Assembly (NCBI GenBank): GCA_964465725.1
Contig: CAYXKS010000002.1
Coordinates: 1 to 38,083, forward strand
Length of the DNA: 38,083 nucleotides
Direction: 5' to 3'
Origin: an uncultured Bacteroides sp.
GTDB lineage: Bacteria; Bacillota; Clostridia; Lachnospirales; Lachnospiraceae
Below are positions 279 through 31,785 of the stretch, one piece after another. Numbering within the stretch: position 1 is the first letter of the stretch; every line of letters begins with the position of its first letter. The notes beneath the pieces are model-generated. The model saw only the letters and a list, made by a program, of their open reading frames with translations, searched no databases and was not told the DNA's origin. Made by a program: the position numbers and the translations under genes.

Positions 279-1979
279 ATGCTGAATAAATTTCACACCT
301 TAACGAACTATTTAGATCAAAAGAGTCATAAATCCCTTTTCCTTCTAGCATTCCTCCATTTACTGTACCCTGTTATCGACGTCTTCAGCATCTCTGCTAT
401 CATACCTGTCCTGAATAATATAGTAAATTATCCCGTTTCTACAATGCATATTCTGCAGATGCTCTTATTGGGATTCATCTTTTTAGCAAAAGGTTTTTTC
501 AATTTATTAATCCATAAAGTTTCATGTAATTTTGTGCGAGATACAGCTTATTCATGGTCCGTCAAGGTTTATGAGCTGTACAATAAAGAAGATCTTCTTA
601 CCCATAATCAGAAATCTGCCATGCAGACGCTTGCGGGAGTCCTTAGCGATACAGAAACCTGTGCCTCCATCCTTATTACAACCATAAACCTTTTTATCCA
701 TTCTCTGACATTCATCGGATATTTTTTTGTCACAGTCTATCTCTCTACCTGGATCGGTCTGATCAGCTGTACCCTGATTATCGTATTGACAGTCCTGCTC
801 CTGTTCCTTAACCGTGCACGTATTGAAGCATACGGTGACAGGAAAAGGGAAGCCAATATTAAGGTAAATTCTCAGATCTCTACCGCCTATGGCGCTTATA
901 AAGAAATAAAAATAGACAGGCGTATGGAAAACATGCTGAAAAAATTTGCGCACGCCAATAAAGAATATACTCAGATCAGGAAAAATTTTGATTTCACAAA
1001 CCAAATTGTCAGCATCCTGCTGCAAAACATTCTGCTTGCATCCTTCTTTTTCCTTCTGGCCGCCCTGCTCTTGTCAGGAATCGTCCTTACAGATTTCCTG
1101 ACTGCTCTGGCTGCCTGTATCCTGCTCCTCATCCGTATGCTGTCGGAGGCAAATACGATATCGGTATCTGTTAACAGTTTATATTTCGGGAAAAAAAGTT
1201 ATGAAATATTCAGAACTAATATGAATCGTTACCAGGCTATGAAAGAAGATGAAATGGCAATTTCCCGTCTGCGCAGAAAAGCCATTACATTGAACAGCCG
1301 TCTGCAGATTGAGCACCTGACTTTCGCTTATCCAGAAGGCGAGTCTATTTTCGAAGATGCTTCTATCGAAATTTGCCCTGGAAGTTCCACCGCGGTCATC
1401 GGGAACTCCGGTATAGGGAAAACCACGTTCCTTGATTTATTATTGGGTCTGCTCACGCCGCAGTCCGGCCATATCTGGTATGATGATTACGATCTTGTAG
1501 ACGGGAAAGATCTTCAAGGAAAGTGCCATGCCGATCTGGGTGATGTTGTCAGCTATATCCCTCAGACAATTTATCTGAACGGTGAAACGATACGAAATAA
1601 TGTAGCGTTTATGCTTGATGAGGACAGTGGAAATGAGAACCGGATCATCGAATGTTTAAAGCGCTGCCAGATATGGGAAGATATCCGGAAAATGCCTGAT
1701 GGCATCGATACATTGATCGGTGAAAACGGAACTGCGATCTCCGGCGGGCAACGCCAGCGCATTGCCCTGGCACGCGCCTTATACAAAGATTTTAAGATCC
1801 TTATTATGGATGAAGCCACAGCCGCCCTGGATCTTGAGACTGAGGCTGCCGTTATCGATTCCATCCGGCAATTGGAAGGAAAAAAAACACTGCTGATGGT
1901 CACACACCACAGGTCTTTGGCGAATGTGTGTGAGCATATATATAAGATTGAAAATAAAAGATTTGTCAAAATAAGGTAA
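279..1979 (+). CDS. ABC exporter, fused TMD+NBD, PglK/HetA/Wzk-like (glycan-locus flippase type)
   Basis: N-terminal hydrophobic helices; Walker A GNSGIGKTT, signature ISGGQRQRIALARALY, Walker B ILIMDEATAALD, H-loop VTHH; located in a glycosyltransferase cluster. Confidence 0.85.
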   Translation: MLNKFHTLTNYLDQKSHKSLFLLAFLHLLYPVIDVFSISAIIPVLNNIVNYPVSTMHILQMLLLGFIFLAKGFFNLLIHKVSCNFVRDTAYSWSVKVYELYNKEDLLTHNQKSAMQTLAGVLSDTETCASILITTINLFIHSLTFIGYFFVTVYLSTWIGLISCTLIIVLTVLLLFLNRARIEAYGDRKREANIKVNSQISTAYGAYKEIKIDRRMENMLKKFAHANKEYTQIRKNFDFTNQIVSILLQNILLASFFFLLAALLLSGIVLTDFLTALAACILLLIRMLSEANTISVSVNSLYFGKKSYEIFRTNMNRYQAMKEDEMAISRLRRKAITLNSRLQIEHLTFAYPEGESIFEDASIEICPGSSTAVIGNSGIGKTTFLDLLLGLLTPQSGHIWYDDYDLVDGKDLQGKCHADLGDVVSYIPQTIYLNGETIRNNVAFMLDEDSGNENRIIECLKRCQIWEDIRKMPDGIDTLIGENGTAISGGQRQRIALARALYKDFKILIMDEATAALDLETEAAVIDSIRQLEGKKTLLMVTHHRSLANVCEHIYKIENKRFVKIR

Positions 1980-1984
1980 ACCCG

Positions 1985-2159: not shown

Positions 2160-2161
2160 TC

Positions 2162-2670: not shown

Positions 2671-3813
2671 ATGCCCGATCTGATATCTGTTATCATACCT
2701 GTATATAATGCCGCACCTTACATAAGTACCTGCATCCAGTCCGTCTTACATCAGACTTACTCCTGCTTTGAGCTACTCTTGGTAGATGACGGCTCACAGG
2801 ATGAAAGCAAGGACATCTGTGAAAAAATCAGCCTGACAGACAATCGGATCCGTTTCTTTCCACAAGAGCATAGAGGCGTGTCCGTTGCAAGGAACAAAGC
2901 CCTCAATGCTGCAAAAGGTAGCTATGTTTTTTTCCTCGACAGTGATGATGTCATCCACCCCTGTCTACTTGAAACTTTACATACAGTTTTAAACAGGACA
3001 CAGGCATCTATGGCAGCTACCGAGTATTGTTTCAGAAAAGCCGGTGCAATGCAGCAATTCGAAAGGAATGAAATTGCCCCCCCCCACCTCCACACACATA
3101 ATTTTAGTGATTACATCTATCTGACTAATGATATCGTGTTGGATTTGTTTGCACAACGTCATACCCATTTACTATACGGCCTCGGTGGGATCATAGTTTC
3201 GCGTACTCAAATAGCTTCTCTTTTATTCGACGAAAGGCTGACTCACGGAGAAGATACTAAGTTCGTCTATCAGGCTTTATTATTAGGTGCAGATGTCGCT
3301 ATTCTGCATAAACAATGGTACTATTACAGGATACATGAGAAAAACAGCAGAACCATACGGACTAAAAATTCCTGCCACAGTATGTATAAATGCGAATGCT
3401 ACATGCGCGACAATGAAATCAAATGCAATAGGATTACCAACGCACTTAAGCTGGAGCAAGGTTTATTAACCCGTATATGCGAATGGTATATAATGGGACG
3501 CCGAAATCATGATATAGCATTGTGCAGCTATCTAAGGAAAATCGCTACAAGAGAAAGTCACTCGGATATTTTTCGTCAACTCTGTCTTAACGACAGAATA
3601 AACTTTTCCCTAATATTTCACTGCCCCCCATCCTACTGGATACTCAATGCATTTCGTTCATTAAATATTTATTTTACAGTACTTTACAACTTTTTTATAG
3701 ATAAACACAGTTTTGCAAAAATTCTTGAAAATCAATACTTTAATCCAAAAAAAACCTTATGCGGCTACCTCTCTCCCTTCCAATGCATCTTGCATATATT
3801 CTGGAAACACTGA
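2671..3813 (+). CDS. Glycosyltransferase family 2
   Basis: ISVIIPVYN, LVDDGSQD, GVSVARN, FFLDSDD, GED motifs; AAGGAG RBS. Confidence 0.92.
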   Translation: MPDLISVIIPVYNAAPYISTCIQSVLHQTYSCFELLLVDDGSQDESKDICEKISLTDNRIRFFPQEHRGVSVARNKALNAAKGSYVFFLDSDDVIHPCLLETLHTVLNRTQASMAATEYCFRKAGAMQQFERNEIAPPHLHTHNFSDYIYLTNDIVLDLFAQRHTHLLYGLGGIIVSRTQIASLLFDERLTHGEDTKFVYQALLLGADVAILHKQWYYYRIHEKNSRTIRTKNSCHSMYKCECYMRDNEIKCNRITNALKLEQGLLTRICEWYIMGRRNHDIALCSYLRKIATRESHSDIFRQLCLNDRINFSLIFHCPPSYWILNAFRSLNIYFTVLYNFFIDKHSFAKILENQYFNPKKTLCGYLSPFQCILHIFWKH

Positions 3814-4119: not shown

Positions 4120-5151
4120 TCAAGAACTACTCCTCCATATTAATAATAGCCTGCTAATTGCATTCGTTAATGCCCTGCCAGCATGTGGATGTTTTCTTAC
4201 AATCCACATAGCTATTTTTTTGTATACAGCAACATTAGGTGCACTCATATAAAAACCTACATAACGCTCGAGTTCTCTCATGCAAACCTTCCAATCTTCA
4301 CATGCAGGTGAAAAATCATCCTTATTCCCCCTCATGCTTTCTTCATACCAATATACCATAAACCGGAACGCGTACTGAAGCTTATGCGCCACAAAATCTT
4401 CACTCTTTATTCTATTTCCTACATCCATAATAGGCTTTAGCGCATAACATATTTCTTTCACAGTATATCTGTTTGTTGAGGAACTTCTTTCATGTTTACA
4501 GTAAAAATATCCCCGAAACGGTACAATTTCCATAAATCCATTACAATAACTTATATATTTGCAGACAAAAGCAAAATCTTCAAAAGCAACTACATCCTCC
4601 GGACATAATATAACTGGATTTCCTTCTGCATCCATGATTATTTCTCTTCGAAACAACACCGAGCAAAGGCTCATTTGAATTTGTTCCCACATAACCATTG
4701 TCAATGCCTGCTGTGGACACCGAACTCGCTGTCCCTTCAAACGATACTGACATAATTTAGGTCTTCCTTCTCCATTACAAAATAGAAGTCCGCATGTTGA
4801 CAGATCATTTCCCCTGTCTATACTTTCCACCAATTTTTCAATCATAGAAGCATGAATCATATCATCAGCATCAACAAATCCAATATACTTTCCTCTTACA
4901 AAATGTAACCCATAATTGCGGGCCTTAGCGCTTCCACCATGAGGAATACTATATATTTTTATCATCGATTCCTGCAATCCATGTTTCTCCTTAAACCTCA
5001 GCACAGTTTTTTCTGTATCATCTGTAGATCCATCATTGACCACTACTATTTCTAAATTTTTGTACGTTGAAGCAAGAATGCTTTGTAGACAGCGTTCTAT
5101 CCTTTTTTCTTCTTGAAACGCAGGTACGACAATCGATACCAGTTCATCCAT
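4120..5151 (-). CDS. Glycosyltransferase family 2
   Basis: VSIVVPAFQEE, VVNDGSTD, ARNYG, GFVDADD, FED motifs. Confidence 0.92.
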   Translation of the reverse strand: MDELVSIVVPAFQEEKRIERCLQSILASTYKNLEIVVVNDGSTDDTEKTVLRFKEKHGLQESMIKIYSIPHGGSAKARNYGLHFVRGKYIGFVDADDMIHASMIEKLVESIDRGNDLSTCGLLFCNGEGRPKLCQYRLKGQRVRCPQQALTMVMWEQIQMSLCSVLFRREIIMDAEGNPVILCPEDVVAFEDFAFVCKYISYCNGFMEIVPFRGYFYCKHERSSSTNRYTVKEICYALKPIMDVGNRIKSEDFVAHKLQYAFRFMVYWYEESMRGNKDDFSPACEDWKVCMRELERYVGFYMSAPNVAVYKKIAMWIVRKHPHAGRALTNAISRLLLIWRSSS

Positions 5152-5218
5152 AACAGCTCCATGTCTCCGCTCAATCTATTCTGGTCCATGTAAGTATCTG
5201 ATATTATAGAGCAATACT

Positions 5219-6412
5219 TTACTCTAATATTACATTTATCCATTCTTGAACCTTATCAAATATATTTAAATCTTCTCTTCGTTCCAAACTCTTTTGCCTG
5301 TATTTTTCTCTTTTTTTGCTATCGCCCAGCAACCTTATCATGGCTTCAGCCATCTTTTGTTCTGCATACTCCAACGGCTCATGATCTTGATATTTTCTGC
5401 CACTACATACAGGAATCAATATCCCATACTCCGTTTCAAGAACATCATTCACTCTCTCTCCCTCTGCATCAAGATCAGGCGCCAATATTTCTCTCGCTCC
5501 CGAATGTACATCTGTTGCGATACAAGGCACTCCACAACACACTGCCTCCGCTAATGCATTAGGATACCCTTCAAATAATGACGGAAGAACAAAAACATCA
5601 GCATTCGCTAAATAGCCATAAGGATTATCACTATATCCAGCGAGAATAATCTTTTCTTTCAAATCGAATAGATTAATTAATTTCTGTAAATATTCTTTCA
5701 AAATTCCATCTCCAAGAATATACAGCTTTGCATTCGGCTCTTTCTTTAAAACATCTGAAAACGCCCTGACCAAATGCCATTGTCCTTTTTGATTGACCAC
5801 TCTTCCTATTGTAACTACTATTTTTTCCTTCGCAGCATTTCCTTCCTTTCCAAATACGCCTTTCTCCATTCCCTTTCTTATTAGCTTATAGTCATAACCA
5901 TTTGTAATAGTTCTTATTTTTTTTTCGGGCATCTTCAATTGTTCAACTAATTTTTTTTCAATTTCTTTTGATACCGCAACTATATTATCAGCGTATTTAA
6001 ATAAACATCTGGTTAAAGGCAAAAAAATAATCTTGGCACACAATTCATTTTCTTCTGCCATCACATCTGTTCTTATAGAAACAATTGTCTTACAATATTT
6101 ATTCCCGGAAAGGACATTAGAAATATTAGCACTATCCAAAAAACTTATGCACGCTTCATAGTCTTTGTTCTTCTTTATCTTTCTCAAATATATTGTTCGT
6201 CTTATAACATTACCAACAAAATACACCGCTGATTTTTTTTCAGGTCTTGACAGAGACAATATATTCCCCTTATAAGGATATCCTATCAAAGACTCATCAT
6301 CTAAAAGAATATCAATATTCCAATCTTCCGGAAAATGAGTCGTTAAATTTGATATCGCCCTTTCTGCGCCCCCTCTATGCAACGCTTCTATGACAAACAG
6401 TACTTTTTTCAT
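5219..6412 (-). CDS. Glycosyltransferase family 4
   Basis: GGAERA N-terminus, IGRV..QKG, PSLFEGYPNALAEA (EX7E). Confidence 0.92.
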   Translation of the reverse strand: MKKVLFVIEALHRGGAERAISNLTTHFPEDWNIDILLDDESLIGYPYKGNILSLSRPEKKSAVYFVGNVIRRTIYLRKIKKNKDYEACISFLDSANISNVLSGNKYCKTIVSIRTDVMAEENELCAKIIFLPLTRCLFKYADNIVAVSKEIEKKLVEQLKMPEKKIRTITNGYDYKLIRKGMEKGVFGKEGNAAKEKIVVTIGRVVNQKGQWHLVRAFSDVLKKEPNAKLYILGDGILKEYLQKLINLFDLKEKIILAGYSDNPYGYLANADVFVLPSLFEGYPNALAEAVCCGVPCIATDVHSGAREILAPDLDAEGERVNDVLETEYGILIPVCSGRKYQDHEPLEYAEQKMAEAMIRLLGDSKKREKYRQKSLERREDLNIFDKVQEWINVILE

Positions 6413-6429: not shown

Positions 6430-7635
6430 TTACGATAACATACTTAAAAGCTTCTCTATTTCTTTTAAACCGTCTACCTGCTTTTTCTTTGATGCCGCAA
6501 AGCTGTACCTCCTCCGCATTTCTGGATCATTTGCCAGCTCTAATACATTTTCGGCTATGGCCTCTGGTGTTAACTTACATATTTTTCCATCCACCCCATC
6601 TTCTACCTGCTCACGTACCCCTCCATATTCGGATACTAATATAGCACAACCCAAAGTCTGTGCCTCCTCAATCGCAATACTTTTTCCTTCAAGATAAGTT
6701 GCATGTACATACAGATCGCATTGTGCATAATAAGGAAATGGATTATTTACAGTTCCTAAGAAAATAAAATCATTTTGCAATCCAAACATTCGTACCTGTT
6801 CTTCCAGTTTTTTACGTAGTTTTCCTTCTCCTAATACATACCACCTAAATGGCTTATCAGTCTCCTTCAAAATCTTCATTGCTCTGATTTCCATATCGAA
6901 TGCTTTTTCTGGAACCAGTCTTCCAACTGTCAGAATTCGAAATCCTTTATAACCATCAGAAAATCCACCTTTATCTTTTGACTTGAGGATGATTTGTCTC
7001 CTATCCACAAGGTTATAGAACACGTTTGTACACTTCCTGCATTCAGGATAACTTGATATGAACTCTTCTTTTACATTTTTCGCCACTGCAAATATATGAT
7101 CAAATTCTAAATAACAATTTTCATCCAATTTTCTGTTATACCCTGCAAGATTATAATTTGTATGTATAAATGCAACCTTTTTCTTTGCCTTTACATGAGA
7201 CGCTACATAATATGTTGAACCACCTTCTAAGTAAGCCACGGCCAAATCATATTCCTTATCTAATTTTTGTGCACCATCAGAAAGAATTTTCCATAACAGT
7301 TTGTCTATTTGAATCTTTCCTTTTGTCAGCATATCCCAAAGATTTCCCGTAACATATCCAATTCTTTTATACAAGGCTCCTGAGATAAACAGTGCCTTCA
7401 TCACAGTCTTTATTAACCTTATCTTCCCTGCATGATCTAACACAGATATCGGATAATATTGTTTGTTTACTACATTTACGCTCTCTGGTATTTGATCAAT
7501 CAGCTCCCCCTGACCGGTAAGTACGAATAAATCCACATCATAAACATCCCTATCTATTTGTCTCAATAACTCCAAAATTGCCCTTTCTCCACCTCCCATG
7601 CCCATAGTATTGATCACAAACAATATTGATTTCAT
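6430..7635 (-). CDS. Glycosyltransferase family 4
   Basis: GMGGGERA, TVGRLVPEKAFD, YLEGKSIAIEEA (EX7E). Confidence 0.92.
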   Translation of the reverse strand: MKSILFVINTMGMGGGERAILELLRQIDRDVYDVDLFVLTGQGELIDQIPESVNVVNKQYYPISVLDHAGKIRLIKTVMKALFISGALYKRIGYVTGNLWDMLTKGKIQIDKLLWKILSDGAQKLDKEYDLAVAYLEGGSTYYVASHVKAKKKVAFIHTNYNLAGYNRKLDENCYLEFDHIFAVAKNVKEEFISSYPECRKCTNVFYNLVDRRQIILKSKDKGGFSDGYKGFRILTVGRLVPEKAFDMEIRAMKILKETDKPFRWYVLGEGKLRKKLEEQVRMFGLQNDFIFLGTVNNPFPYYAQCDLYVHATYLEGKSIAIEEAQTLGCAILVSEYGGVREQVEDGVDGKICKLTPEAIAENVLELANDPEMRRRYSFAASKKKQVDGLKEIEKLLSMLS

Positions 7636-7636: not shown

Positions 7637-9853
7637 TCATTCTCCCGCTAAATTATATGGCTTATCAACATCCTGCTTAAAATAATAACAAACAAAATTT
7701 TCGTCTTCATAGTATACATTCAATTCTGACGGATGCTTCTGCAAAAAATCCTGACACCATTCATAGATTTTTGATTCCACAATCGTACGTAGATTTATAT
7801 AAAGTTCCCAGTTATCACTTAAATACTCCGGCAATTCTTCCTGTGCTGCCTCTTTGGAAATTTCAGTAGCTACTATCTCCATATCTCTGCTCCTTGCCAA
7901 CCATGAAGGCCCATTAAAATAATACTCTTGAAAATACTCAATCGGTCTCTTTTCAATATACAGAAAAACATATTCTGTCGAAAGTGAATATTTCTCAGTA
8001 TTACAATTCTTAAGGAATTTTAAAATTTCTTCATGCTCACCAAAAAGTTCAATCTGAGGTTTTTCCTCAATAGGAGATACAATTGTATAGCTTCCCGGTA
8101 CAAATTCGTTAATAATATCATTTGTCACCAATACCGCAGCCTCATAACGATTCAAAGAATAATATAAATATTCATGAAAAATCCCTAGTTGATTAATGGC
8201 TATATAAAGACCAACGACAAAAATATAAGATGCTTTCTGCATGATATATTCTTTATAATAACGTGCACTTAATGTAAATAGAATATCCGCCGGCATCATC
8301 ATTACTGCAAAAATCATCAAAAATCCCTCTGGGCAAAAACGATGGTTAGGAATAATGACCGGAAGCCCTAATTCTGGTGACGCATAAGCCGCATAAATCA
8401 ACATAGATAAAAAGGAAATTAAAACAACCGGCATATACAAACTACTTATCTTATTAATATATTTACATGAAAATACTCTGCCCATAAAACAAATAAGGAT
8501 AACTCCAATAGTAATTCCGAAAATTCGTCTACCTCTTACCTGTTTAAACGTCCCCTGATATCCAAATTTATACGTAATTTTTATAAGATTTTCTACTTTT
8601 ATAATACCTTTTATAATATGTTGTGCAGTATCTGGTAATTTTTCTAAAATTATCCAATCTTCAGAAGTAGGATCTAACACCCCACTGACACTTTTGACCT
8701 CTCCAGTTTCAGTTTCTAATACTGCAGTAGAGTTTTTATCATTACTGTTTATAACTTTTACTCCCCAATTAATAGATCTTTGAAACGGAATTCCCGACGC
8801 AAGTGCTCCAGCCACAGGCAATATTGCTATTGCACACCCCATAAACACTGAAATTATCAATGGTATCAAATACTTAACATTTATCACTTTTCTAATACTA
8901 AACAAGGCAAATGAAGCACACAAAATAAATGCCATAAGTGTTACATAGTAATGTGTTGATAAAGTAGCCGCCAGTGACATTATAAACAATATCAGATCTG
9001 TGCTCCAAAAAAATTTCGATGTTCTCTCCTTTTTGAAAATACATTTTGCATTTCTTAAATACCGAATCAAAAACAATGCACATAAAAATTGCGTATGCAG
9101 GCCAAATTCCATAGGAAGTGTTACCGGAAGCCTGTACATCCCATGATGATTGTTAACATTTATAATGAGAAATAAACTTATTACAAAGATTGGTGTATAT
9201 CGCCAAGAAAAAATTTCTCTGAACAGACAATACGCCGAAAGCAGAAACACCATTAAATGAATACATTGTAGATATAACATTATATTGTATATACGAATAT
9301 CAAATAAGGCATATAAGCAATATATAAAACTATGCATTGCCGCCGGATAAATACCATCAGGAAATATTTCTCCTCCTATCATCCTATTTATCCAGCCATG
9401 ATGGGTAATCAAATCATAACAACCATACGTATGTATCTGAAAAGAACCGTACGAGAAATAGATTATTCCAAAGATAATAACACTCAACAAGAGACTGTAT
9501 TCCCCAAGGCTTAAATATACATCACTCCATAATTTTCGAATCTGTCTTAGTACCGTCTGTTTGAGACAACTGAATTGCTGACCTCTTCTCAAGGAAACAG
9601 AACGCCAAATTGCCAGCAAAAATGTTCCATAGAAAAAAAGGGCCACTATTATTCTATTCAATATATGAAAAAGTCCTAATGTCAAAACAACGGTATTAAT
9701 AATGATAATTTGAACGGTAACACAGAAACCAAAGCCATATGTCTTTGACTTTCCTCTTAGATGATTTCTAAAAATAACCATTGGCCAAATGAACATTAAA
9801 AAAACATACCCCCAAAAAACCTTCCCATATTCCATTCCCCAATATACATCCAT
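7637..9853 (-). CDS. Large polytopic membrane protein, putative GT-C-fold glycosyltransferase (paralog of 18392-20851)
   Basis: Many TM segments plus a soluble C-terminal domain; loop motif YDLITHHGWI...GIYPAAMH; collinear motifs shared with the 819-aa protein. The CDS is certain; function is inferred. Confidence 0.7.
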   Translation of the reverse strand: MDVYWGMEYGKVFWGYVFLMFIWPMVIFRNHLRGKSKTYGFGFCVTVQIIIINTVVLTLGLFHILNRIIVALFFYGTFLLAIWRSVSLRRGQQFSCLKQTVLRQIRKLWSDVYLSLGEYSLLLSVIIFGIIYFSYGSFQIHTYGCYDLITHHGWINRMIGGEIFPDGIYPAAMHSFIYCLYALFDIRIYNIMLYLQCIHLMVFLLSAYCLFREIFSWRYTPIFVISLFLIINVNNHHGMYRLPVTLPMEFGLHTQFLCALFLIRYLRNAKCIFKKERTSKFFWSTDLILFIMSLAATLSTHYYVTLMAFILCASFALFSIRKVINVKYLIPLIISVFMGCAIAILPVAGALASGIPFQRSINWGVKVINSNDKNSTAVLETETGEVKSVSGVLDPTSEDWIILEKLPDTAQHIIKGIIKVENLIKITYKFGYQGTFKQVRGRRIFGITIGVILICFMGRVFSCKYINKISSLYMPVVLISFLSMLIYAAYASPELGLPVIIPNHRFCPEGFLMIFAVMMMPADILFTLSARYYKEYIMQKASYIFVVGLYIAINQLGIFHEYLYYSLNRYEAAVLVTNDIINEFVPGSYTIVSPIEEKPQIELFGEHEEILKFLKNCNTEKYSLSTEYVFLYIEKRPIEYFQEYYFNGPSWLARSRDMEIVATEISKEAAQEELPEYLSDNWELYINLRTIVESKIYEWCQDFLQKHPSELNVYYEDENFVCYYFKQDVDKPYNLAGE

Positions 9854-10989: not shown

Positions 10990-10999
10990 TTTTACCCCT

Positions 11000-12076: not shown

Positions 12077-12104
12077 TCATTCACCTCGCATATGTAAAGT
12101 AATA

Positions 12105-23568: not shown

Positions 23569-25052
23569 CCCTGCTCCTTTTTCTTCTTTCTCGATTTCTT
23601 CTTTGTCCCATCAGACTTCCGATAAACCACGCTGGACGGCATCTTCCCTCTTCCCCTCTTCAACAGCAGCCATTTACAGAATATATTTCTGTCCAGATTC
23701 TTTTCCACCCACCGCAGTCTCATATAGGCCACCGTCCATCCGGCAAAGGCTCCTAGTAGCACACCCAGACCATACCATATCTCTGACAGGCGATACGCCG
23801 CGAACACACTACCCAGGAAAGTAACCAGACAGAAACTGAGCGTAGTTAAAACTGCCCCTGTCAAATCATTATAGTAATACAGGAAGAGAATTGCCGCATA
23901 CATCAGGAAAAGAATAAAATACCCTGCCGCCATGCAAGGATAAATTCTCATAATTATTCCGCCAAGCCCATACCTGGGCAGAAGGACAACACAGAGCAAA
24001 TAGACTACTACAGATATAATAAACTGAATCCGTACCAGCGTCATTAACTCGTTGCTGATCGTCCGAAACATTCTTCTCTTCGTATTGTCTATATCCGCCC
24101 ACTTACCGCCAATGACAGCCTCTGAATATGCCCTGTATTTTTCATGAAAAAACATCTCTATCCGCGCAATAAAAATAACCGTAGCAGAAATGTTCGTAAA
24201 CATAGCAATACAAGTTGCCATATCATAGGGTTGATTACACACAAAACTCTTGACAACCACAATTCTCATATCCGTCGTCCAGAACACAAAATTATGAATA
24301 TATAATCCTAAAATATAAAGGAAGTTACACACCACCAACTGCCACCACTTCCCGAAATATTTCAGTACAGGTTTATACCGGCTGCTGTTCTTCACGAAAT
24401 AACGCTTGACCGTGGCAAACTCCATAGTCGCGATCAGGAAGAACCCAACCATAAGTGAGAACAAAATACTGATCGTAACTTCCCAGTAAAAGATAAACTT
24501 CAAAATCAGCGAGAGGATAAACGCCACTACCATCCCAATCAGGAAATAGAAAGAAATCTTCTGATAATCCTTACAGATTGAAAGATAGATCATTGAGTAA
24601 AATACCAGCACCAGAGAAATATATCCACAGAATCCCGTGAACACATAGAAAACGCTTACTCCTCCGATAAAGTGCTCCCACAGGCAGAACGGAATACCCA
24701 GAAGGCAGCTAAGCACAATATTCATCATCAATCCCAAATAATAGCATGGTAAAATATCCTGATATCGCTCTTCAAAAATCGCATCCTGCATATACTTTGA
24801 TAAAACCGCATTAAAAGGAGATGCTGTCAAAAGAGCAAAAATAAATGTATATAACACGGTACAGAAAAAAACTTCCCTGGACAAATATGTTGCTTTATTT
24901 AATCCCAACACCCATCCCATCAAAACGATATTCAGAATTACAAGTATCATCGGCGCCACTGTGGCAATAGTACTGTAAGTGAAACCGACAAGATTCGCAA
25001 GGACTGACTTCTTCTCAAAGATACGGTTCAATTTAACGCCTATACCTGCCAT
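23547..25052 (-). CDS. pelG: Pel exopolysaccharide transporter PelG
   Basis: Starts MAGIGVKL after GGGGAGGTG; polytopic; LGLYIHNFVFW, YDMAT, FHEKYRAY motifs; directly downstream of pelF. Confidence 0.9.
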   Translation of the reverse strand: MAGIGVKLNRIFEKKSVLANLVGFTYSTIATVAPMILVILNIVLMGWVLGLNKATYLSREVFFCTVLYTFIFALLTASPFNAVLSKYMQDAIFEERYQDILPCYYLGLMMNIVLSCLLGIPFCLWEHFIGGVSVFYVFTGFCGYISLVLVFYSMIYLSICKDYQKISFYFLIGMVVAFILSLILKFIFYWEVTISILFSLMVGFFLIATMEFATVKRYFVKNSSRYKPVLKYFGKWWQLVVCNFLYILGLYIHNFVFWTTDMRIVVVKSFVCNQPYDMATCIAMFTNISATVIFIARIEMFFHEKYRAYSEAVIGGKWADIDNTKRRMFRTISNELMTLVRIQFIISVVVYLLCVVLLPRYGLGGIIMRIYPCMAAGYFILFLMYAAILFLYYYNDLTGAVLTTLSFCLVTFLGSVFAAYRLSEIWYGLGVLLGAFAGWTVAYMRLRWVEKNLDRNIFCKWLLLKRGRGKMPSSVVYRKSDGTKKKSRKKKKEQGWEQAAL

Positions 25053-25056
25053 AGTT

Positions 25057-26544
25057 CTACACCTCCCCGATGGAATCATCCAACTGTTGTTCTATGTGTC
25101 CCATTTCACTTTCCTGCCATGGCAAATTCATGCTTTTCGCAAATTCACTATAAACAGTTCCGTAATTACCCAGCATGGTTTCCATTCGATAGAATGAAAC
25201 CACTCTGTGATACCCGTTTTCTCCCATCTGTATACGAAGCTGCTTATCTCGCGCCAGAGTGAGAATCGCCTCCGTGATCTCCTCCACATCCATGATATGG
25301 GCAATAATTCCGGCTTCCCCGCACTTATCTTCCTCTCCATTGCCTAATATCAATCCGCTGCAATCGCCTACGTCTGTGGCAATCACAGGTTTGTGCGCCG
25401 CAAAGCTTTCCAGGATCGTCAACGGCTGACCCTCACTGATACTGGTCAGAATCATCATATCCATCTTACCATAATATTCCTGTACATCTATTTTACCGGT
25501 AAATATAACATCAGAAATCCCCATGATCCCTACCATATCAAAGCATTCCTGTGCATATCCGTCATCAGTATCCCATGGTCCCATAATCCAAAGCTTTAAT
25601 CTGGGATCCTTTTCTTTGGCAAAGCCGAACGCCTGAATCATAGTCTTGACGTCCTTAATCGGGGTCACACGCAGCACTGCACCAACATAGATCTCATTCT
25701 GCTCTGCTTCTGTCTTTCCTAATAACTCCTGAAATTTCTCGACCTGAATACCATTCGGAATCACCATAGTCTTTTCTACAGGACATTCCAGCTCGACCTG
25801 TAATTCTCTGGCCTTTCCATACAGGCTGGTCACAAGCTCCGCCCTGTCATAAGCCATCTTTGACATCTTATGAAACTGCCCGATCCAGATATTCTTATAG
25901 ATACCCTTCACCCACTTGGAGCGGATCAGTTCTTCCTCACGCTCCCGTGTATAGATACCATGCTCCGATACCAACAGACGCCCTCCGTGGATATATTTTC
26001 CCATGCTCCCCAGCACGCCTGCATAGCCAGTACACAGGCAATGATAAACGTCTGCTTTCGGGATCTTCATCTGCAATGTTCTGAACAAGGGCAAATAAAT
26101 GGAACGCATTGTCCACAGGAAATCCGTAAATACAATCTGGCTGTAATTCATCATATAAAACTCTGTGACTGCATTCAGGAAATCTTCTCCCATCAATAAA
26201 TCATTCAGGGAACGTTTCTTTTTCTGGAAAAAATCAATCAGAGCTTCCCACTCCACCTGTTTGCCCAGCATAAGACTTCGCAAAGCTTGATATTCTTTCC
26301 TGTTCATGCGTTTCTTTCGTCTTCGTTGTTTGCACCAGTCCAGATCATCCAGATAAAGTTCATGCACCTCCACTACATTCTCAGGCAGTTTATACACAAA
26401 CTTTCCCCGCAAGTCTCTATTAGCCACGATAGTCAAAATAACAAACTCCTGATTGGGAAAAGAACGTATCAGACCGTGCGCCCAACTGGACATGCCACCT
26501 ACCGTATATGGATAACATCCTTCCGCTACTATGCAAATTCTCAT
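25057..26544 (-). CDS. pelF: Pel glycosyltransferase PelF (DUF3492 plus GT4)
   Basis: EGCYPYTVGGMSSW, TGYAG, SEHGIYTREREEE, RVTPIKDVKT, SISEGQPLTILE. Confidence 0.93.
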   Translation of the reverse strand: MRICIVAEGCYPYTVGGMSSWAHGLIRSFPNQEFVILTIVANRDLRGKFVYKLPENVVEVHELYLDDLDWCKQRRRKKRMNRKEYQALRSLMLGKQVEWEALIDFFQKKKRSLNDLLMGEDFLNAVTEFYMMNYSQIVFTDFLWTMRSIYLPLFRTLQMKIPKADVYHCLCTGYAGVLGSMGKYIHGGRLLVSEHGIYTREREEELIRSKWVKGIYKNIWIGQFHKMSKMAYDRAELVTSLYGKARELQVELECPVEKTMVIPNGIQVEKFQELLGKTEAEQNEIYVGAVLRVTPIKDVKTMIQAFGFAKEKDPRLKLWIMGPWDTDDGYAQECFDMVGIMGISDVIFTGKIDVQEYYGKMDMMILTSISEGQPLTILESFAAHKPVIATDVGDCSGLILGNGEEDKCGEAGIIAHIMDVEEITEAILTLARDKQLRIQMGENGYHRVVSFYRMETMLGNYGTVYSEFAKSMNLPWQESEMGHIEQQLDDSIGEV

Positions 26545-26650: not shown

Positions 26651-28489
26651 TCAGTAAACCGACTGCAACGTAATCACAGCACTGTTCTGTTCCACCTCAA
26701 TCAAAAACGCATCATCTTCAAGTGCTCTCCAGCTACCGCCCTCCACGCTCTCTATCGACTCATGATTCGTTCTCAGCACAAACCATACAGGTCCTCTTAC
26801 ATTATTCAATTCCAGCCGAATAGAATTAAATTCCCTACTTTCCTTATAATCCAATGCCAAGAAACTTCTTATTCTCTCATCGCACTCCGACACGGTTGTA
26901 CTGTCAAACTCCTGTTTCCCGACCCTGTAATCCTGAAGATTCTGCCGCAGTGTATTGGAGGCAAAGACCCACTCATCATTATCTTCTTCCGGATATACAA
27001 TACTCTTCATATCTGCCATGACACTGGTATATCCTAACGCTGTCTCCAGACATCTGATCCGGAAATCATGACGCACCGAGTCTTCGAATCCATCGATCAC
27101 AACACACTGCCTCGTAATATACTCTGATACATAACCAATCACTTCCAAGTTCCTGTCCTCATCATATTCCTCGACAATAGTCCTCACAGAACTAAGCAGC
27201 TCCTCCTGAAGGATATTCCACACCTCTTCGTCCGTCATACCATCCGCATAAAAGGAGGTAAACTGATAGGTCGGCAGCGCCTCCTGCATGAATTCATAGT
27301 CCCTTGCAATTTTCTTCTCATACGGCGTTTCCGACTGGTATGCACCGGACAATCCAGTCTCTGCATTCTGCTCATTCAGCAGTTTCATATATCTTTCAAA
27401 CTGATCGGCATCAGGATAATTGTCGTCTTCATAATCTAACTGCGGGGAAAGCATACAGGTAAAATCCATTCCACTCTCCCTGCGAACAGCCACCACATCA
27501 GGCCAGATCACATTTTGATACAAATCTCCCAGTGACTGACTGTAACGTTCCATCAGCGCCTCGTTATTTTCATCCGCCAAACCGGGATAATTGGCATAGA
27601 TCATATTCTGTGCATTGACAACCGGGTAAATCTCATAAGGACTCATCCTGGCAGACATTGCAGACAAAATCCCCAATCCAGCCACATCCTCCATATAACC
27701 ACCATTAACTGCGAAGACAGAGGCAGTCTCGTAATCCTTTTTCCAGATAATAGCCGGAAGTTCCTCATCCTCTATCGATTCGGTCCCCATCGATCTCTTC
27801 TCAGTGATTCCATTCATATAGATTTCTGTATCGGTGGATAAGCCATACCACGGAAGATGAAATTCCATTCCCTCTTCTATACCTTCCGAGGAATAGAAAG
27901 CCTCTCCTCCCAGCAGGAAACCATTGTGCAGATGGATATCCGTCAAGGCCATCTCCTCTGCCCTGATCATTTGAATCCCCAGAATATCCTGCAGTTGTTT
28001 GTTATCTTTCATCACCGATATATCCGGAAGATTACAAAAAACAAGGTGAATTCCCGACTCCACATATGCATTCAGCAGATCACAGTTTTCTTTCCTGCTC
28101 CAATCAACAGCCGCCGAGTCTATGAGTATCATTGCGGGCAGTTCTGCTCCGTCAGTCTTCTTTGCAGTTTCATATTCTTCTATCGATTGATAGTCCCTAA
28201 ATGCCCTCTTTGTATAAGTAATCCACATGGATACTGTTTGGCCAGTCAATTCCTCTTTATCTCCGATATATACAGCCAGTTCTCTTGAATCACCTGCGAA
28301 ATCCTCCCGCCGTGCATCGAAATCAGCACTGTAGGCGTCGCTTTGATTCGAAATCTCATCTGTATCTACTATATAGGAATTTTCTTCATAATGATTCCAG
28401 CTATCCAACGCAACGTTCGAAAACTGGAACAGAAAAAACACGATGAACATTACGATCGTAATCGTAAAATAATTCCGGCGTGATATCAT
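26651..28489 (-). CDS. DUF2194 / PelA-DA-like membrane-anchored protein, probably catalytically degenerate
   Basis: N-terminal TM; IYPVVNA, YQNVIWPD and WFVLRT segments typical of DUF2194; occupies the slot between pelE and pelF; CE4 DD and HxxxH residues are not seen. Confidence 0.72.
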   Translation of the reverse strand: MISRRNYFTITIVMFIVFFLFQFSNVALDSWNHYEENSYIVDTDEISNQSDAYSADFDARREDFAGDSRELAVYIGDKEELTGQTVSMWITYTKRAFRDYQSIEEYETAKKTDGAELPAMILIDSAAVDWSRKENCDLLNAYVESGIHLVFCNLPDISVMKDNKQLQDILGIQMIRAEEMALTDIHLHNGFLLGGEAFYSSEGIEEGMEFHLPWYGLSTDTEIYMNGITEKRSMGTESIEDEELPAIIWKKDYETASVFAVNGGYMEDVAGLGILSAMSARMSPYEIYPVVNAQNMIYANYPGLADENNEALMERYSQSLGDLYQNVIWPDVVAVRRESGMDFTCMLSPQLDYEDDNYPDADQFERYMKLLNEQNAETGLSGAYQSETPYEKKIARDYEFMQEALPTYQFTSFYADGMTDEEVWNILQEELLSSVRTIVEEYDEDRNLEVIGYVSEYITRQCVVIDGFEDSVRHDFRIRCLETALGYTSVMADMKSIVYPEEDNDEWVFASNTLRQNLQDYRVGKQEFDSTTVSECDERIRSFLALDYKESREFNSIRLELNNVRGPVWFVLRTNHESIESVEGGSWRALEDDAFLIEVEQNSAVITLQSVY

Positions 28490-28654: not shown

Positions 28655-29614
28655 TTAACTGAAAATACGTATCAACTCCAATGTTTCATTGTCGATTACA
28701 ACATCCGACTTCTTCAATGCATCCATAGTCTGGAAGAAAGCCTCCCTGTTTCTGACAATAAAGTACAACTTCAGTCTACAAGTAAAAGCTGAAAGTCTGT
28801 CTGGATACTGCTCTGCCAGACGAATACACCACTTCTCAGAATTTTCAAAGTCTTCTATATCCAAAAGACGCAGGCATACGCTCTCATACTGCTGTTCTGT
28901 CATTCCAGAAGGATTCTTCGCATAGAACGATTCCGCCGCTTCGACCATGATCTGCACAAATCTGTTTTGTTCAATCTTCGTAAAAACCTTCTGTTTCAGA
29001 ACCTTGTCAGTATAAGTGATCATCATATCTTCGTATTCGGTCTGATCATCCGATTCATCCCTGATGCCTAGATACAGTTTCTGTACCTCCATACGGAACT
29101 CATTCAGTTCATGGCTCAGAATAGCCGCCGCATAATGAGAAGACTCCGGATCATTCGTCTCAAGCGCCAGTGCGATAGCAGACAGTGAATCCTGTATTTC
29201 TCCTTTAAGGACATTCAACATTGCCATACGAAGACTCTTCTGGTCATTCACGGCAACAGCTTCTTCCAGCGGAATTACGTTCAGTTCTCTCTCCTCATCC
29301 GCCTTCAACTGCGTTCTCACGCGTTCCTTGCTAAAGACAACATCGTCCAGCTCCACTTGAAATCTGAAAATAGTCAGATAAAACAAATGTACGACAAAGA
29401 AGAATAAAGGCCCCACCACCGGGCATAAAATCATAACAATAAAACGCAACAAATAAGTCCTTCTGTTATCATGCAGGCGTTCAACTTCATCTTTCCTTTT
29501 TCGATTACGAATAGGAACCATAATCAGTGCGCCGATCAGCAGATAAAGGACCGCAATGATCGTATTAATCACAACAATGATGAGAAAAATATACTCATCT
29601 CCCGTCAAATTCAT
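28655..29614 (-). CDS. pelE: Gram-positive PelE-like membrane protein
   Basis: Two N-terminal TMs, IPLEEA, ALETNDPESSHYAA, helical C-terminus; ATG at 29614 overlaps the pelD stop (ATGA) after GAGAGGAGG. Confidence 0.75.
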   Translation of the reverse strand: MNLTGDEYIFLIIVVINTIIAVLYLLIGALIMVPIRNRKRKDEVERLHDNRRTYLLRFIVMILCPVVGPLFFFVVHLFYLTIFRFQVELDDVVFSKERVRTQLKADEERELNVIPLEEAVAVNDQKSLRMAMLNVLKGEIQDSLSAIALALETNDPESSHYAAAILSHELNEFRMEVQKLYLGIRDESDDQTEYEDMMITYTDKVLKQKVFTKIEQNRFVQIMVEAAESFYAKNPSGMTEQQYESVCLRLLDIEDFENSEKWCIRLAEQYPDRLSAFTCRLKLYFIVRNREAFFQTMDALKKSDVVIDNETLELIRIFS

Positions 29615-31785
29615 AGTTCTGCCTCCTCTCTGAGACAGCACTCATAGCCCGCCTTTCGGAACCGCTCAATAACACCTTCTGCACTCTTACTATCCGTATT
29701 AGATAACAAAATATAGAATTTCCCGTCGTTAAGGACTCCCATGTAATCCGTCTGACGCATATTCCTGCCCAATACCTCCGCTGCTTTTATGCGGTCTTCC
29801 GTCAATATCTCCAGCATAGCGCACTCTGTCAGTCCGTTTGTCTTTGCGCCTAAAAATGCAGAAACTAACTGTTCAAAAGCGTCCGGCGACATGATATTGG
29901 TCTGCTCCAAATAACGCTGGCTCATCAGCGCATCCATATACCGGTTCGCATTTACCACAGCGTTTTGAATCAGCGCCCCGACTATCGTCAGGCGATTCGC
30001 TTCTGAAAGCGTCATCCTCTGCCAAGGAATACCCCAAACCATCAGAATCAGTTCCATCCTATCCTCAGTATAGACAGCGCCCGCCATCAAAGGCAACTTT
30101 TCGTCCATCTTCTTATTGATAAATACCCTGTGCTCCTTCAGGTCATTATATAAATCCTCCATATTGGTATACTTAATAGAATTGCCTAATTTCTTCGCCT
30201 CTTTCGACGTAAAGGAGAACAGTCTCGCATAATCCCCATTCGCTACCGTATAGACAGCCACATCCTTACTGTCCATCAATTCCCCCAATACCTTCGCGGC
30301 ATAGAACAACACTTCTTCCGGCTCATACGCGTCCAGACTGGAAGTGATTTCATAAATCTTTCCAAGGCTGTCCCTCTGGTTAACCAACTGTGTCTCAAAG
30401 CTTTGCTTCATACGTACATTACTGTCATTGATATCCGCAATATCATCGACTTTCCGGCTCAGGTAGCGCACCTCTTCCTCATTCTCATCTTTGATGAACT
30501 GAAGCTGGTCACGCATATAACCTACCACCATTCCAATGATGAATAACTGAGCCATCCATACGTATATGTTATAATCCAGCAGCACTTCAAATCCTGTTCT
30601 CCCATACATCTGCTGCAGGAAATATCCCACCACCGCCAGCAGAGAGGAAAAGATTGCCTGCTGTTGTCCATAGACAATAGCGAACAAAAGTACATACAGA
30701 AGGAAAAAGTCCAGTCTGTTAAAATACTCGCTGCCTGCCGCCTTACTGTTCATAATGAAAAAGGGAATGAAGCAGATCAAATTCTCAACAAACGGGAATA
30801 TCCTCTTGAAGGTAACCTTAACCCCATGCCAGATTCTCCCGGCCCGGCTTCCTCCCACATCCTCCGCGCTGATAAAGGAATCCGCATGCCGTTTCATATA
30901 TTTGGCAACCTGATCTACTCCCTCTTCATAGTGAACGAATATACTCTGATCATACTCTTCCTGGTAAAGCCTCCCGTCCAACACAAGACGATAGCGATCT
31001 CCGACTGAATTATTGACCAATCTGACGCCACCACCCATCGCCTTAATGACGTACTCTGCGAGCATAACCTCATTGATCTCTTCCATGGAGGAGATATGAT
31101 AACAGGGCAGTGACGGATGCTCTTCCATCATCGCCTTATACGCCAGTTCAACCGCGTCATTCAGCCAGAGCATGGAGAATGATCTTATGTCACTGGCAGA
31201 AACTTTCCCAGTTTTCAATGCTTCCAGGCACATATTAAAACATGGGTTGTTCTCTTCCTGCCCTTTACGTGGCACGCCGTACAGATGATCGAAGCGTAGG
31301 ATCAATGTATCAATACCCTGTGTCTTCCGGTAATTCTCACAAATCTCTTCACCCTGCGCGATTGCCATGGATTTAAATCCTCTGGGTACCATCTGAATCG
31401 ATTCCGAAATATCATCGTGATGTGAACCACTGTATACTTCATGAGACGAGAAATAGACGAAACGTCCCTTGCTTACCATGGAATATGTAGATAGAATATT
31501 CATAAGCGCCGCCGTATACCGCACTGACTCCTGTCTTTCTCTATGCCAGTCAAAATTCGTGTCATATGCGCCCAGAAACACTACCATATCCGGTTTGACA
31601 CTCTCGAATATATCCTTGACACTCTCATCCTCATACGAATAATCGTATCTCTCAAATACATGCTTATAAGAGAACTTCCTATCTCTCCGGCCTGTCAATA
31701 AAAAGATCCGGTGCTTTCCTTTGTTCAACTTATCAATTACGGCATCCGCTAATCTGCTGCCACCACCAATTAATAAAACATTCAT
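29611..31785 (-). CDS. pelD: PelD-like c-di-GMP receptor with an N-terminal SDR (epimerase-like) domain
   Basis: About 300-aa Rossmann/SDR-like region, 4 TMs, coiled coil, GAF-like region, degenerate GGDEF with RQTD (RxxD) I-site and ILLSNT; first gene of the pel array. Confidence 0.82.
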   Translation of the reverse strand: MNVLLIGGGSRLADAVIDKLNKGKHRIFLLTGRRDRKFSYKHVFERYDYSYEDESVKDIFESVKPDMVVFLGAYDTNFDWHRERQESVRYTAALMNILSTYSMVSKGRFVYFSSHEVYSGSHHDDISESIQMVPRGFKSMAIAQGEEICENYRKTQGIDTLILRFDHLYGVPRKGQEENNPCFNMCLEALKTGKVSASDIRSFSMLWLNDAVELAYKAMMEEHPSLPCYHISSMEEINEVMLAEYVIKAMGGGVRLVNNSVGDRYRLVLDGRLYQEEYDQSIFVHYEEGVDQVAKYMKRHADSFISAEDVGGSRAGRIWHGVKVTFKRIFPFVENLICFIPFFIMNSKAAGSEYFNRLDFFLLYVLLFAIVYGQQQAIFSSLLAVVGYFLQQMYGRTGFEVLLDYNIYVWMAQLFIIGMVVGYMRDQLQFIKDENEEEVRYLSRKVDDIADINDSNVRMKQSFETQLVNQRDSLGKIYEITSSLDAYEPEEVLFYAAKVLGELMDSKDVAVYTVANGDYARLFSFTSKEAKKLGNSIKYTNMEDLYNDLKEHRVFINKKMDEKLPLMAGAVYTEDRMELILMVWGIPWQRMTLSEANRLTIVGALIQNAVVNANRYMDALMSQRYLEQTNIMSPDAFEQLVSAFLGAKTNGLTECAMLEILTEDRIKAAEVLGRNMRQTDYMGVLNDGKFYILLSNTDSKSAEGVIERFRKAGYECCLREEAEL

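What the first reader, a model, noticed from the sequence alone, without database searches (positions are those of the whole stretch)
279..31785. Candidate new system: Gram-positive Pel synthase coupled to a lipid-linked glycan decoration pathway
Seen: pelD-E-(DUF2194)-F-G continues, via a 22-bp overlap, into a DUF2304-GT2 fusion, a putative hydrolase, a GT-C-like protein, DUF1919, a pyruvyltransferase, an Fe-S reductase-like gene, six more minus-strand soluble GT2/GT4 genes and a second GT-C-like protein. A PglK-like ABC exporter and a seventh GT sit on the plus strand. No recognisable Wzy, Wzz/CpsBCD or priming phosphoglycosyltransferase is in the window. Known: characterised Pel (Pseudomonas, Bacillus cereus) is a linear GalNAc/GalN polymer; in mycobacteria PpgS (GT2), Rv3632 (DUF2304) and Rv3779 (GT-C) add GalN to arabinogalactan via a polyprenyl-phosphate sugar. 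Inference: the fused GT2 loads a polyprenyl monophosphate, soluble GTs extend it, the ABC protein flips it, and the GT-C enzymes graft it onto Pel or another surface acceptor. The product would be a branched, variably decorated Pel.
Basis: partly seen in the sequence, partly recalled or inferred. Interest (0 to 1): 0.85.

Follow-up and report, generated by a model that had tools for sequence, protein, structure and literature searches.

The report
Pel synthase swaps deacetylation for grafting
In gut Lachnospiraceae, one whole lineage of Pel biofilm-sugar gene clusters has lost the catalytic residues of its normally essential deacetylase and instead carries a membrane enzyme, predicted to have a sugar-transferring GT-C fold, that likely grafts lipid-carried sugars onto the polymer, which would make a branched, strain-variable Pel.

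Summary
The 819-aa membrane protein folds as GT-C (top 20 of 48,161 chains are GT-C-fold proteins, best Z 16). In an even sample of 300 Lachnospiraceae genomes, 44 carry pelG. All 28 with this GT-C form one PelF clade; 22 have it between pelE and pelA, 26 add DUF2304 and 25 a PpgS-like GT2. The other 16 have none of these. B. cereus makes no Pel without this activity. A second, distant PelF/PelG-like lineage carries the same module. Likely mechanism: an acetylated PelF backbone receives side chains from a GacIJKL/Wps-type lipid-monophosphate pathway. The ABC, pyruvyltransferase and six GTs are a variable cassette (ABC: 2 of 28 genomes; low GC; cut off by an IS), so their part is less sure. Pel genes inside larger Roseburia clusters were noted in 2020; the GT-C and dead deacetylase were not found in ten literature searches. 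Acceptor and sugars are untested.

The parts
29611..31785 (-). pelD, 724 aa: degenerate epimerase-like domain, DUF4118-like membrane part, degenerate GGDEF with RxxD (RQTD at 677)
   Evidence: this architecture is described in PMC7112168
28655..29641 (-). pelE, 328 aa, two predicted TM helices
   Evidence: position and conservation in relatives; no significant Pfam hit
26651..28489 (-). pelA_DA pseudo-deacetylase (DUF2194), 612 aa; catalytic DD / HxxxH / H replaced by A299-N300 / S381, Q385 / V490
   Evidence: only DUF2194 gene found in the 86%-complete genome
25057..26544 (-). pelF GT4 polymerase, motifs as in classical pel loci
23547..25079 (-). pelG exporter (MOP superfamily)
22450..23568 (-). 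DUF2304-GT2 fusion (GacJ/GacI- or Rv3632/PpgS-like), predicted polyprenyl-phosphate sugar synthase
20876..22303 (-). DUF4874+DUF4832 membrane-anchored protein, likely glycoside hydrolase; the DUF4832 protein SIR_1591 of S. intermedius disrupts Pel aggregates
   Evidence: PMC12345266 passages
18392..20851 (-). GT-C-fold protein 1 (core), 819 aa, near-invariant D205 in the first loop of the GT-C module
17668..18333 (-). DUF1919 (variable cassette)
16496..17641 (-). polysaccharide pyruvyltransferase family (variable cassette)
15350..16453 (-). FrhB-like Fe-S protein (variable cassette)
13219..15319 (.). ISKra4-like insertion sequence, 25-nt terminal inverted repeats, transposase in pieces; interrupts the run
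9901..13175 (-). GT2 (12105-13175) and two paralogous GT4s (11000-12076, 9901-10989; 55% identical); low-GC block
7637..9853 (-). GT-C-family protein 2, 738 aa, 39% identical to protein 1, same Asp kept (D147); fold inferred from homology
6430..7635 (-). PglJ-like GT4; its orthologue lies in 23 of 28 sampled loci, usually between the DUF2304 and GT2 genes (core)
4120..6412 (-). GT4 (5219-6412) and GT2 (4120-5151); low-GC block
2671..3813 (+). GT2, inverted relative to the cluster
279..1979 (+). PglK-like ABC exporter, candidate side-chain flippase of one sub-lineage; on a segment duplicated on contig C246

Best explanation
This locus is a Pel synthase whose deacetylase PelA has lost its catalytic residues and which carries a protein predicted to have a GT-C fold that likely grafts lipid-carried sugars onto the still-acetylated polymer as it leaves the cell. 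Steps: (1) c-di-GMP would activate PelD (RxxD shown; binding inferred), PelF would polymerise an alpha-1,4-HexNAc chain, probably GalNAc, and PelG would export it (inferred from B. cereus and P. aeruginosa). (2) PelA is kept at full length without its metal and acid/base residues (shown) and would act as a polymer-binding scaffold (inferred). (3) The DUF2304-GT2 fusion would load a HexNAc on undecaprenyl monophosphate (inferred from GacI/GacJ, PpgS/Rv3632, WpsA/WpsB). (4) The conserved PglJ-like GT4, and in some strains further cassette GTs and modifiers, would extend it (inferred from lactococcal WpsC-F; about 60% for this window's cassette). (5) A Wzx protein in most relatives, the PglK-like ABC here, would flip it (inferred from near-exclusive distribution). 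(6) The GT-C would transfer it to the backbone, and the second GT-C would add a second substituent (inferred). (7) The DUF4832 protein would trim or release polymer (inferred from SIR_1591).
For: Fold: model pLDDT 86.5. The first 30 Foldseek rows and the top 20 VIA rows are GT-C-fold proteins (AglB Z 16.0, rmsd 7.3, 415 aligned; ArnT Z 15.0, rmsd 6.0, 430 aligned); the first unrelated row has Z 6.5. D205 is Asp in 103 of 104 homologues. Synteny: 51 of 51 loci with a close GT-C relative lie beside pel genes. In an even 300-genome sample, 28 of 44 pelG genomes carry the GT-C: 27 in the locus, 22 of them between pelE and pelA; DUF2304 26, PpgS-like GT2 25, the GT4 23. None of these occurs in the other 16. 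PelA keeps at most 1 of 5 catalytic residues in 29 of 29 GT-C genomes, 49 of 49 close loci and 3 of 3 further class-level carriers; all 5 are kept in 12 of 13 and 7 of 9 non-carriers. PelA_DA activity is required for Pel in B. cereus (PMC13254593), so ordinary Pel is unlikely. Second pairing: three genomes of other families join a distant PelF (DUF3492-GT4), a PelG-like 11-TM protein, GT2, DUF2304 and two GT-Cs of this family; their PelF is not sister to the GT-C clade in a quick tree. Wzx and the PglK-like ABC share only 1 of the loci fetched.
Against: No biochemical data; donor and acceptor are unknown. The GT-C loci are one PelF clade (99% local support), so GT-C gain and deacetylase loss are one event, not 29. 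PelA is also degenerate in two genomes without the GT-C (G276, G313) and no pelA gene was seen in four loci. Twelve of 51 close loci and 3 of 28 sampled loci lack the cognate GT2, and 4 of 5 such genomes checked have only 30-35% paralogues elsewhere. G529 has a dead PelA but its GT-C is on another contig. The best-scoring folds include protein-acceptor enzymes (AglB, STT3, PMT), so the fold does not name the acceptor. The GT2 is below the PpgS cut-off (54 against 370 bits). PglK flips pyrophosphate-linked glycans (recalled), whereas a monophosphate lipid is proposed here.
Confidence: 0.55

Rival explanations
1. The Pel machine has become a lipid-linked pathway. The GT2/DUF2304 pair primes undecaprenyl phosphate, the conserved GT4 and PelF extend that primer, PelG (a MOP-family protein) flips it, and the GT-C ligates or polymerises the chain on a cell-surface acceptor, giving an anchored capsule-like glycan.
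For: PelG belongs to the MOP exporter superfamily (PMC13254593). Several loci show no other flippase in the stretch fetched. Lactococcal WpsI and WpsJ are GT-C enzymes that polymerise or ligate monophosphate-linked chains. It would explain why deacetylation is dispensable.
Against: PelD, PelE, PelF and PelG keep their motifs and order. A separate Wzx, MurJ-like or ABC flippase is present in many loci. PelF and PelG persist with the GT-C where the GT2/DUF2304 pair is lost.
Confidence: 0.2
2. The GT-C module glycosylates another acceptor (a surface protein, teichoic acid or wall polysaccharide) and shares the operon only for co-regulation by c-di-GMP; Pel is made in parallel as an acetylated, undecorated chain.
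For: Top fold matches include protein-acceptor enzymes. Stealth phosphotransferases (8 of 28) and glycerophosphotransferases occur in related loci, and Whitfield 2020 read the Roseburia clusters as capsule or teichoic acid genes. PelA also degenerates without a GT-C (G276, G313).
Against: The GT-C lies inside the pel core in 22 of 28 genomes. All 30 strong family-level matches lie with pel genes or pel-clade companion genes, and the family meets a PelF-like gene again in a second architecture.
Confidence: 0.17
3. The pel core is decaying or silent, and the downstream genes are an unrelated glycan cassette that landed next to it.
For: Dead PelA; an IS; a low-GC block; a duplicated, inverted ABC. 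G037 has a truncated pelF and no pelG match.
Against: Full-length PelD, E, A, F and G are kept across about 28 genera at 20-89% identity to the window's proteins, with RxxD in all 23 GT-C-clade PelD relatives aligned and the window and PelF motifs conserved.
Confidence: 0.08

Closest known systems
Gram-positive Pel, pelDEA_DAFG of Bacillus cereus ATCC 10987 (PMC7112168, PMC13254593)
   Same: Gene set and order D-E-A-F-G; RxxD in PelD; PelF motifs; membrane-anchored DUF2194 PelA; degenerate epimerase domain on PelD as in other clostridia.
   Different: PelA lacks D262/D263/H350/H354/H488 equivalents, which are essential in B. cereus; a GT-C, DUF2304, PpgS-like GT2 and an extra GT4 are in the locus.
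Streptococcal/clostridial pel with cotH-PPP-DUF4956-DUF4832 (PMC7112168, PMC12345266)
   Same: Same core; DUF4832 hydrolase-like gene.
   Different: That type (CotH in 13 of the 16 non-carrier genomes) keeps an intact deacetylase in 12 of 13 and has no GT-C module; it lies outside the GT-C PelF clade.
Roseburia pel loci inside a larger cluster (Whitfield 2020, S7 Fig)
   Same: Lachnospiraceae pel core in a larger glycan cluster; the legend lists GT1, GT2, phosphotransferase, nucleotidyltransferase and DUF genes, like the Stealth (8 of 28) and NTP_transf_5 (17 of 28) genes seen here.
   Different: The text read names no GT-C, no lipid-monophosphate pathway and no inactive PelA, and leaves function open. 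The figure could not be read, and Roseburia membership of this clade was not tested.
Four-component glycosylation: S. pyogenes GacIJKL; L. lactis WpsA/B/C-F/G/J (10.1101/180810, PMC9574508)
   Same: GT-A plus DUF2304 activator (fusions known), flippase, GT-C; extension of the monophosphate-linked sugar by soluble GTs and a variable side-chain cassette in lactococci.
   Different: Their acceptor is a lipid-primed rhamnan; here the proposed acceptor is a c-di-GMP-controlled synthase product. The GT-C has no Pfam family (weak DUF6541 link), and this window has an ABC in place of Wzx.
Mycobacterial PpgS / Rv3632 / Rv3779
   Same: Best NCBIfam match of the GT2 is PpgS; Rv3632 is DUF2304 and stimulates PpgS.
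   Different: Score far below cut-off; acceptor there is arabinogalactan (recalled, as is the role of Rv3779).

Membership tests
Gram-positive Pel (pelDEA_DAFG) | pelD, E, A_DA, F, G in order | tested here: met
Gram-positive Pel (pelDEA_DAFG) | PelD with RxxD c-di-GMP site | tested here: met
   RQTD at 677; RxxD in all aligned relatives
Gram-positive Pel (pelDEA_DAFG) | PelF above family cut-off with conserved motifs | tested here: met
   NF038011 362 bits, cut-off 100; motifs
Gram-positive Pel (pelDEA_DAFG) | PelA_DA with DD, HxxxH and catalytic His (CE26) | tested here: not met
   0 of 5 residues. Mapped by alignment to intact Lachnospiraceae PelA; the B. cereus sequence was not at hand, so equivalence to its numbering rests on motif and spacing
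Gram-positive Pel (pelDEA_DAFG) | Product is linear, partly deacetylated alpha-1,4-GalNAc | not testable with these tools
   needs NMR or linkage analysis
GT-C superfamily | GT-C fold | tested here: met
   (protein 1); protein 2 by 39% identity
GT-C superfamily | Conserved acidic residue in the first external loop | tested here: met
   D205 in 103 of 104 rows, Glu in 1; its catalytic role is inferred, no superposition was inspected
GT-C superfamily | Uses a lipid-linked sugar donor | not testable with these tools
   biochemistry needed
Four-component system (GacIJKL / Wps) | GT-A polyprenyl-phosphate sugar synthase | tested here: inconclusive
   best matches PpgS, AglJ and dolichyl-phosphate hexose transferase, all under cut-off; no PDB sequence match
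Four-component system (GacIJKL / Wps) | DUF2304 activator | tested here: met
Four-component system (GacIJKL / Wps) | Wzx-family flippase in the locus | tested here: not met
   none in the window; present in 15 of 28 relatives
Four-component system (GacIJKL / Wps) | Rhamnan acceptor | not tested
   no rhamnan genes among the window's 25 scanned proteins; the rest of the genome was not searched for them
PglK flippase (NF050066) | Score above the equivalog cut-off | tested here: not met
   205 against 1000 bits; PglK is still the best bacterial match in the PDB, E 2e-51
Wzy-dependent capsule/EPS | Wzy, Wzz/CpsBCD and priming phosphoglycosyltransferase in the locus | tested here: not met
   the locus reaches a contig end

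The most novel reading that the evidence does not exclude
A synthase-dependent, c-di-GMP-controlled exopolysaccharide has replaced its deacetylation step by a lipid-linked side-chain pathway. The dead PelA presents the chain to a new GT-C family, and exchangeable cassettes supply serotype-like branches. This GT-C family is dedicated to PelF-type polymers and has paired with them twice, defining a class of decorated Pel-like surface glycans in gut Clostridia.
Probability: 0.4. Interest if true: 0.87.

Novelty: new variant of a known kind. Interest (0 to 1): 0.72.

Why it matters
[quoted passage not shown] Here about two thirds of the pelG-bearing Lachnospiraceae sampled (28 of 44; about 9% of 300 genomes) keep the synthase but have lost that activity. 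This turns the question left open in 2020, whether the Roseburia-type loci work and what they make, into a specific test. It offers a hybrid of synthase-dependent export and lipid-linked decoration, a large unannotated GT-C family (2,944 clusters at E <= 1e-30, some labelled 'amino acid ABC transporter permease'), and a possible source of strain-variable surface glycans in abundant gut commensals. It also warns that counting pelDEAFG genes overcounts cationic Pel.

Tried and rejected
Sequence searches did not name the GT-C: no Pfam or NCBIfam hit, no PDB sequence match; 2 of 30 distant homologues gave weak DUF6541 hits (also atlas). Wzy or transporter identity was rejected on fold. The PelA model was run without an alignment and is useless (pLDDT 39); PelA had no PDB sequence match. 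A complex prediction of PelG with the GT-C membrane part (orthologues from L026) gave no answer and is no evidence either way. Co-transcription was not shown. Promoter and terminator counts equal chance (44 against 41.8; 15 against 13.0), with one 11/12 promoter-like site before pelD. One metatranscriptome's contigs cover pieces of pelD to pelG thinly and hardly the genes behind; contigs cannot show transcription. No Rfam match. The first DUF2304 profile held three GT2 fragments; it was rebuilt and the counts were unchanged. A second ABC clade near many loci goes with PqqD, nucleotidyltransferase and S24/S26 peptidase genes and is not the window's ABC. Six weak GT-C rows (E above 1e-6) and two weak PelG rows were dropped. 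Left unscored for PelA because truncated or absent in the stretch: G035, G050, G289, G126, G025. The one-clade test for the two PelF groups was not run. No paper was found for a lactyl-ether role of the pyruvyltransferase/Fe-S pair. Three look-ups of earlier scan findings were empty.
Full report
Observation. The window is the start of contig C2 of an 86%-complete genome; its relatives are Lachnospiraceae. The listed genes are all present. From pelD to the Fe-S gene they run on the minus strand with overlaps or gaps of at most 165 bp; pelG and the fusion overlap by 22 bp. The six GTs and the second large membrane protein behind it have GC 0.32-0.37 (GC3 0.26-0.31), against 0.42-0.45 (GC3 0.46-0.53) for pelD to the first membrane protein. 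The ABC gene lies on a segment duplicated on contig C246.

The large membrane proteins. They are 39% identical and have no family hit. An alignment-based model of the 819-aa protein (pLDDT 86.5) matched GT-C proteins in the first 30 Foldseek rows (16 with E <= 0.001). Among 48,161 chains the top 20 are GT-C-fold proteins (two are GPI-transamidase subunits), led by AglB (Z 16.0, rmsd 7.3, 415 aligned) and ArnT (Z 15.0, rmsd 6.0, 430 aligned); the first unrelated row has Z 6.5. D205, just after the first helix of the matched module, is Asp in 103 of 104 homologues. The fold does not tell the acceptor.

The fusion. The N-terminal part is DUF2304 (Pfam E 8e-4, under cut-off; 84 bits on a profile of 23 stand-alone relatives against 5.9 for shuffles). 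The GT2's best model is PpgS, under cut-off. The fusion is local: 8 of 51 close loci; in most relatives the two are separate genes, often with a PglJ-like GT4 between them.

Co-conservation. All 51 loci fetched with the GT-C lie beside pel genes, but that set is biased to close kin. In an even sample of 300 family genomes, 44 have PelG above cut-off and 30 have a strong GT-C match. Twenty-eight have both. Of the other two, G037 has pelD-E-GT-C-A and a truncated pelF, and G050 is a short contig with the GT2 and DUF4832 genes. In the 28, the GT-C lies between pelE and pelA in 22, behind pelG in 5 and on another contig in 1 (read; tallied in 102). DUF2304 is in 26, the GT2 in 25, the GT4 in 23, DUF4832 in 26 and a Wzx-type flippase in 15. 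The 16 other pel loci have no GT-C, DUF2304, GT2 or GT4 of these kinds, and 13 have CotH. Stretches of 8-50 kb were read, so absences are floors. The GT-C loci are one side of a branch in the PelF tree (99% local support): one origin, long maintained.

The dead deacetylase. B. cereus PelA_DA needs D262, D263, H350, H354 and H488, and without its activity no Pel is detected (PMC13254593, passages). Lachnospiraceae PelA without a GT-C show DDFP, HGYNH and a later His in 12 of 13 scored. The window's PelA has A299-N300, S381, Q385 and V490 in those columns. At most 1 of 5 residues is kept in 29 of 29 GT-C genomes (the window's included), in 49 of 49 PelA from the 51 close loci and in 3 of 3 further carriers from a 399-genome class sample. 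The protein stays full length and shares 15 conserved, mostly structural, residues with the active form, which fits a kept scaffold. Against a strict link: G276 and G313 are degenerate without a GT-C, G499 keeps 3 of 5, four loci show no pelA, and G529 has a dead PelA with its GT-C on another contig. PelD keeps RxxD and PelF its motifs, so the synthase does not look decayed.

A second pairing. Four class-level genomes have distant GT-C homologues and no Pfam PelG. Three of them hold a PelF-like DUF3492-GT4, a GT2, DUF2304, two GT-Cs and an 11-TM protein. That protein's atlas neighbours are PelG clusters (25 of 30 hits, score 0.94), and it aligns weakly along a PelG profile (E 0.003). Their PelF is a distant group, and with it as outgroup the GT-C clade sits among classical PelF (backbone support only 80-84). 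The module thus seems to follow PelF-type polymerases in two lineages. The fourth (G345) showed no DUF2304 in the stretch read.

The variable part. The window's ABC belongs to a clade of 29 rows (SH-aLRT 100), all from loci with the pyruvyltransferase or Fe-S genes. In the family sample it has strong matches only in G234, G026 and the window's genome. PglK is its best bacterial match in the PDB, but it is far below the PglK cut-off. Wzx and this ABC occur together in 1 fetched locus, which suits two alternative flippases, within the limits of the flanks read. A second GT-C occurs in 9 of 51 close loci. The GT2/DUF2304 pair is missing from 12 of 51 close loci, and 4 of 5 such genomes checked have only distant paralogues.

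Mechanism. Shown: gene content, predicted fold, co-conservation, loss of catalytic residues. Inferred: every chemical step. The closest precedent is the four-component system: GacI makes GlcNAc-phosphate-undecaprenol, DUF2304 GacJ activates it (fusions known), GacK flips and the GT-C GacL transfers; lactococcal WpsA/B prime the same lipid, WpsC-F extend it and WpsJ grafts it on rhamnan (10.1101/180810 and PMC9574508, passages). I put 0.55 on grafting onto the acetylated PelF product, 0.2 on a fully lipid-linked route with PelG as flippase, 0.17 on another acceptor and 0.08 on decay. A DUF4832 protein of S. intermedius is an active hydrolase on Pel aggregates (PMC12345266, passages).

What is known. 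Whitfield 2020 (PMC7112168; section 6 read in full, other passages, S1 Table rows; figure PDFs unreadable) reports pel genes in a larger capsule- or teichoic-acid-like cluster in Roseburia and leaves function open. Its S7 legend fits loci of this clade, but I did not test Roseburia. PMC7890745 (parts 1-2 of 4) calls Pel the most conserved of these systems. Ten searches of the open library found no paper linking Pel to a GT-C or to a naturally inactive PelA. None of the 13 papers listed contains 'GT-C', and the single paper with both 'pelF' and 'GT-C' is on type IV pili (listing only). Subscription papers are not searched, and the closed supplements of the epsSMASH preprint (passages read) may describe these or the second architecture.

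Verdict. A real, conserved, apparently undescribed variant joining two known kinds of machinery. It should not be filed as canonical Pel, since a defining feature failed, though it likely works through the Pel synthase. Interest 0.72.

Noticed in passing
L175 (G510), L176 (G437), L177 (G377): A second Pel-like architecture in three other Clostridia families: distant PelF (DUF3492-GT4), PelG-like 11-TM protein missed by Pfam, GT2, DUF2304 and two GT-Cs; MurJ-like flippase, GH114 and an HD-domain membrane protein each in 2 of 3 by Pfam; no PelD, E or A detected. It may overlap the 'pel-like' clusters of the epsSMASH preprint, whose supplements were closed.
   Followed up: partly
window 13219-15319: ISKra4-like element with 25-nt inverted repeats and a transposase in pieces; no second copy found in the assembly.
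   Followed up: partly
window 1-2157 and G000:C246: ABC exporter segment present twice at 94-98% identity; on C246 it adjoins a 342-aa ORF that looks like an Rpn-type nuclease/transposase (label recalled, not tested), a fragment of which lies at window 1779-2144.
   Followed up: partly
window 2162-2488: MazF/PemK-like toxin-antitoxin toxin gene between the ABC and the GT2; no antitoxin was looked for.
   Followed up: no
window 32309-32872: 187-aa protein with an N-terminal hydrophobic segment and no family, just upstream of pelD and followed by a strong hairpin; its contig has depth 452 in one metatranscriptome against 2-10 for pel genes; a 46% paralogue lies on C1.
   Followed up: no
window 15350-17641; L020, L023, L026: Pyruvyltransferase and FrhB-like Fe-S genes travel together, and 720-760-aa fusion proteins occur in relatives; a transfer-then-reduce route to a lactyl ether is conceivable but unsupported.
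   Followed up: partly
L025, L029, L033, L065 (G026): Hybrid loci: GT-C-clade pel with dead PelA plus cotH-type accessory genes, without the GT2/DUF2304 pair.
   Followed up: partly
L158, L159, L162, L172/L173; L093, L170: pel loci with no pelA gene seen, or a degenerate PelA and no GT-C, so deacetylase-free pel loci exist in more than one form.
   Followed up: no
L052, L056, L060, L078, L116: Cassette of PqqD-domain protein, NTP_transf_5 nucleotidyltransferase, ABC exporter and S24/S26 peptidase recurring beside these loci.
   Followed up: no
L106 (G191): Tandem duplication of the GT-C and pelA pair inside the pel core.
   Followed up: no
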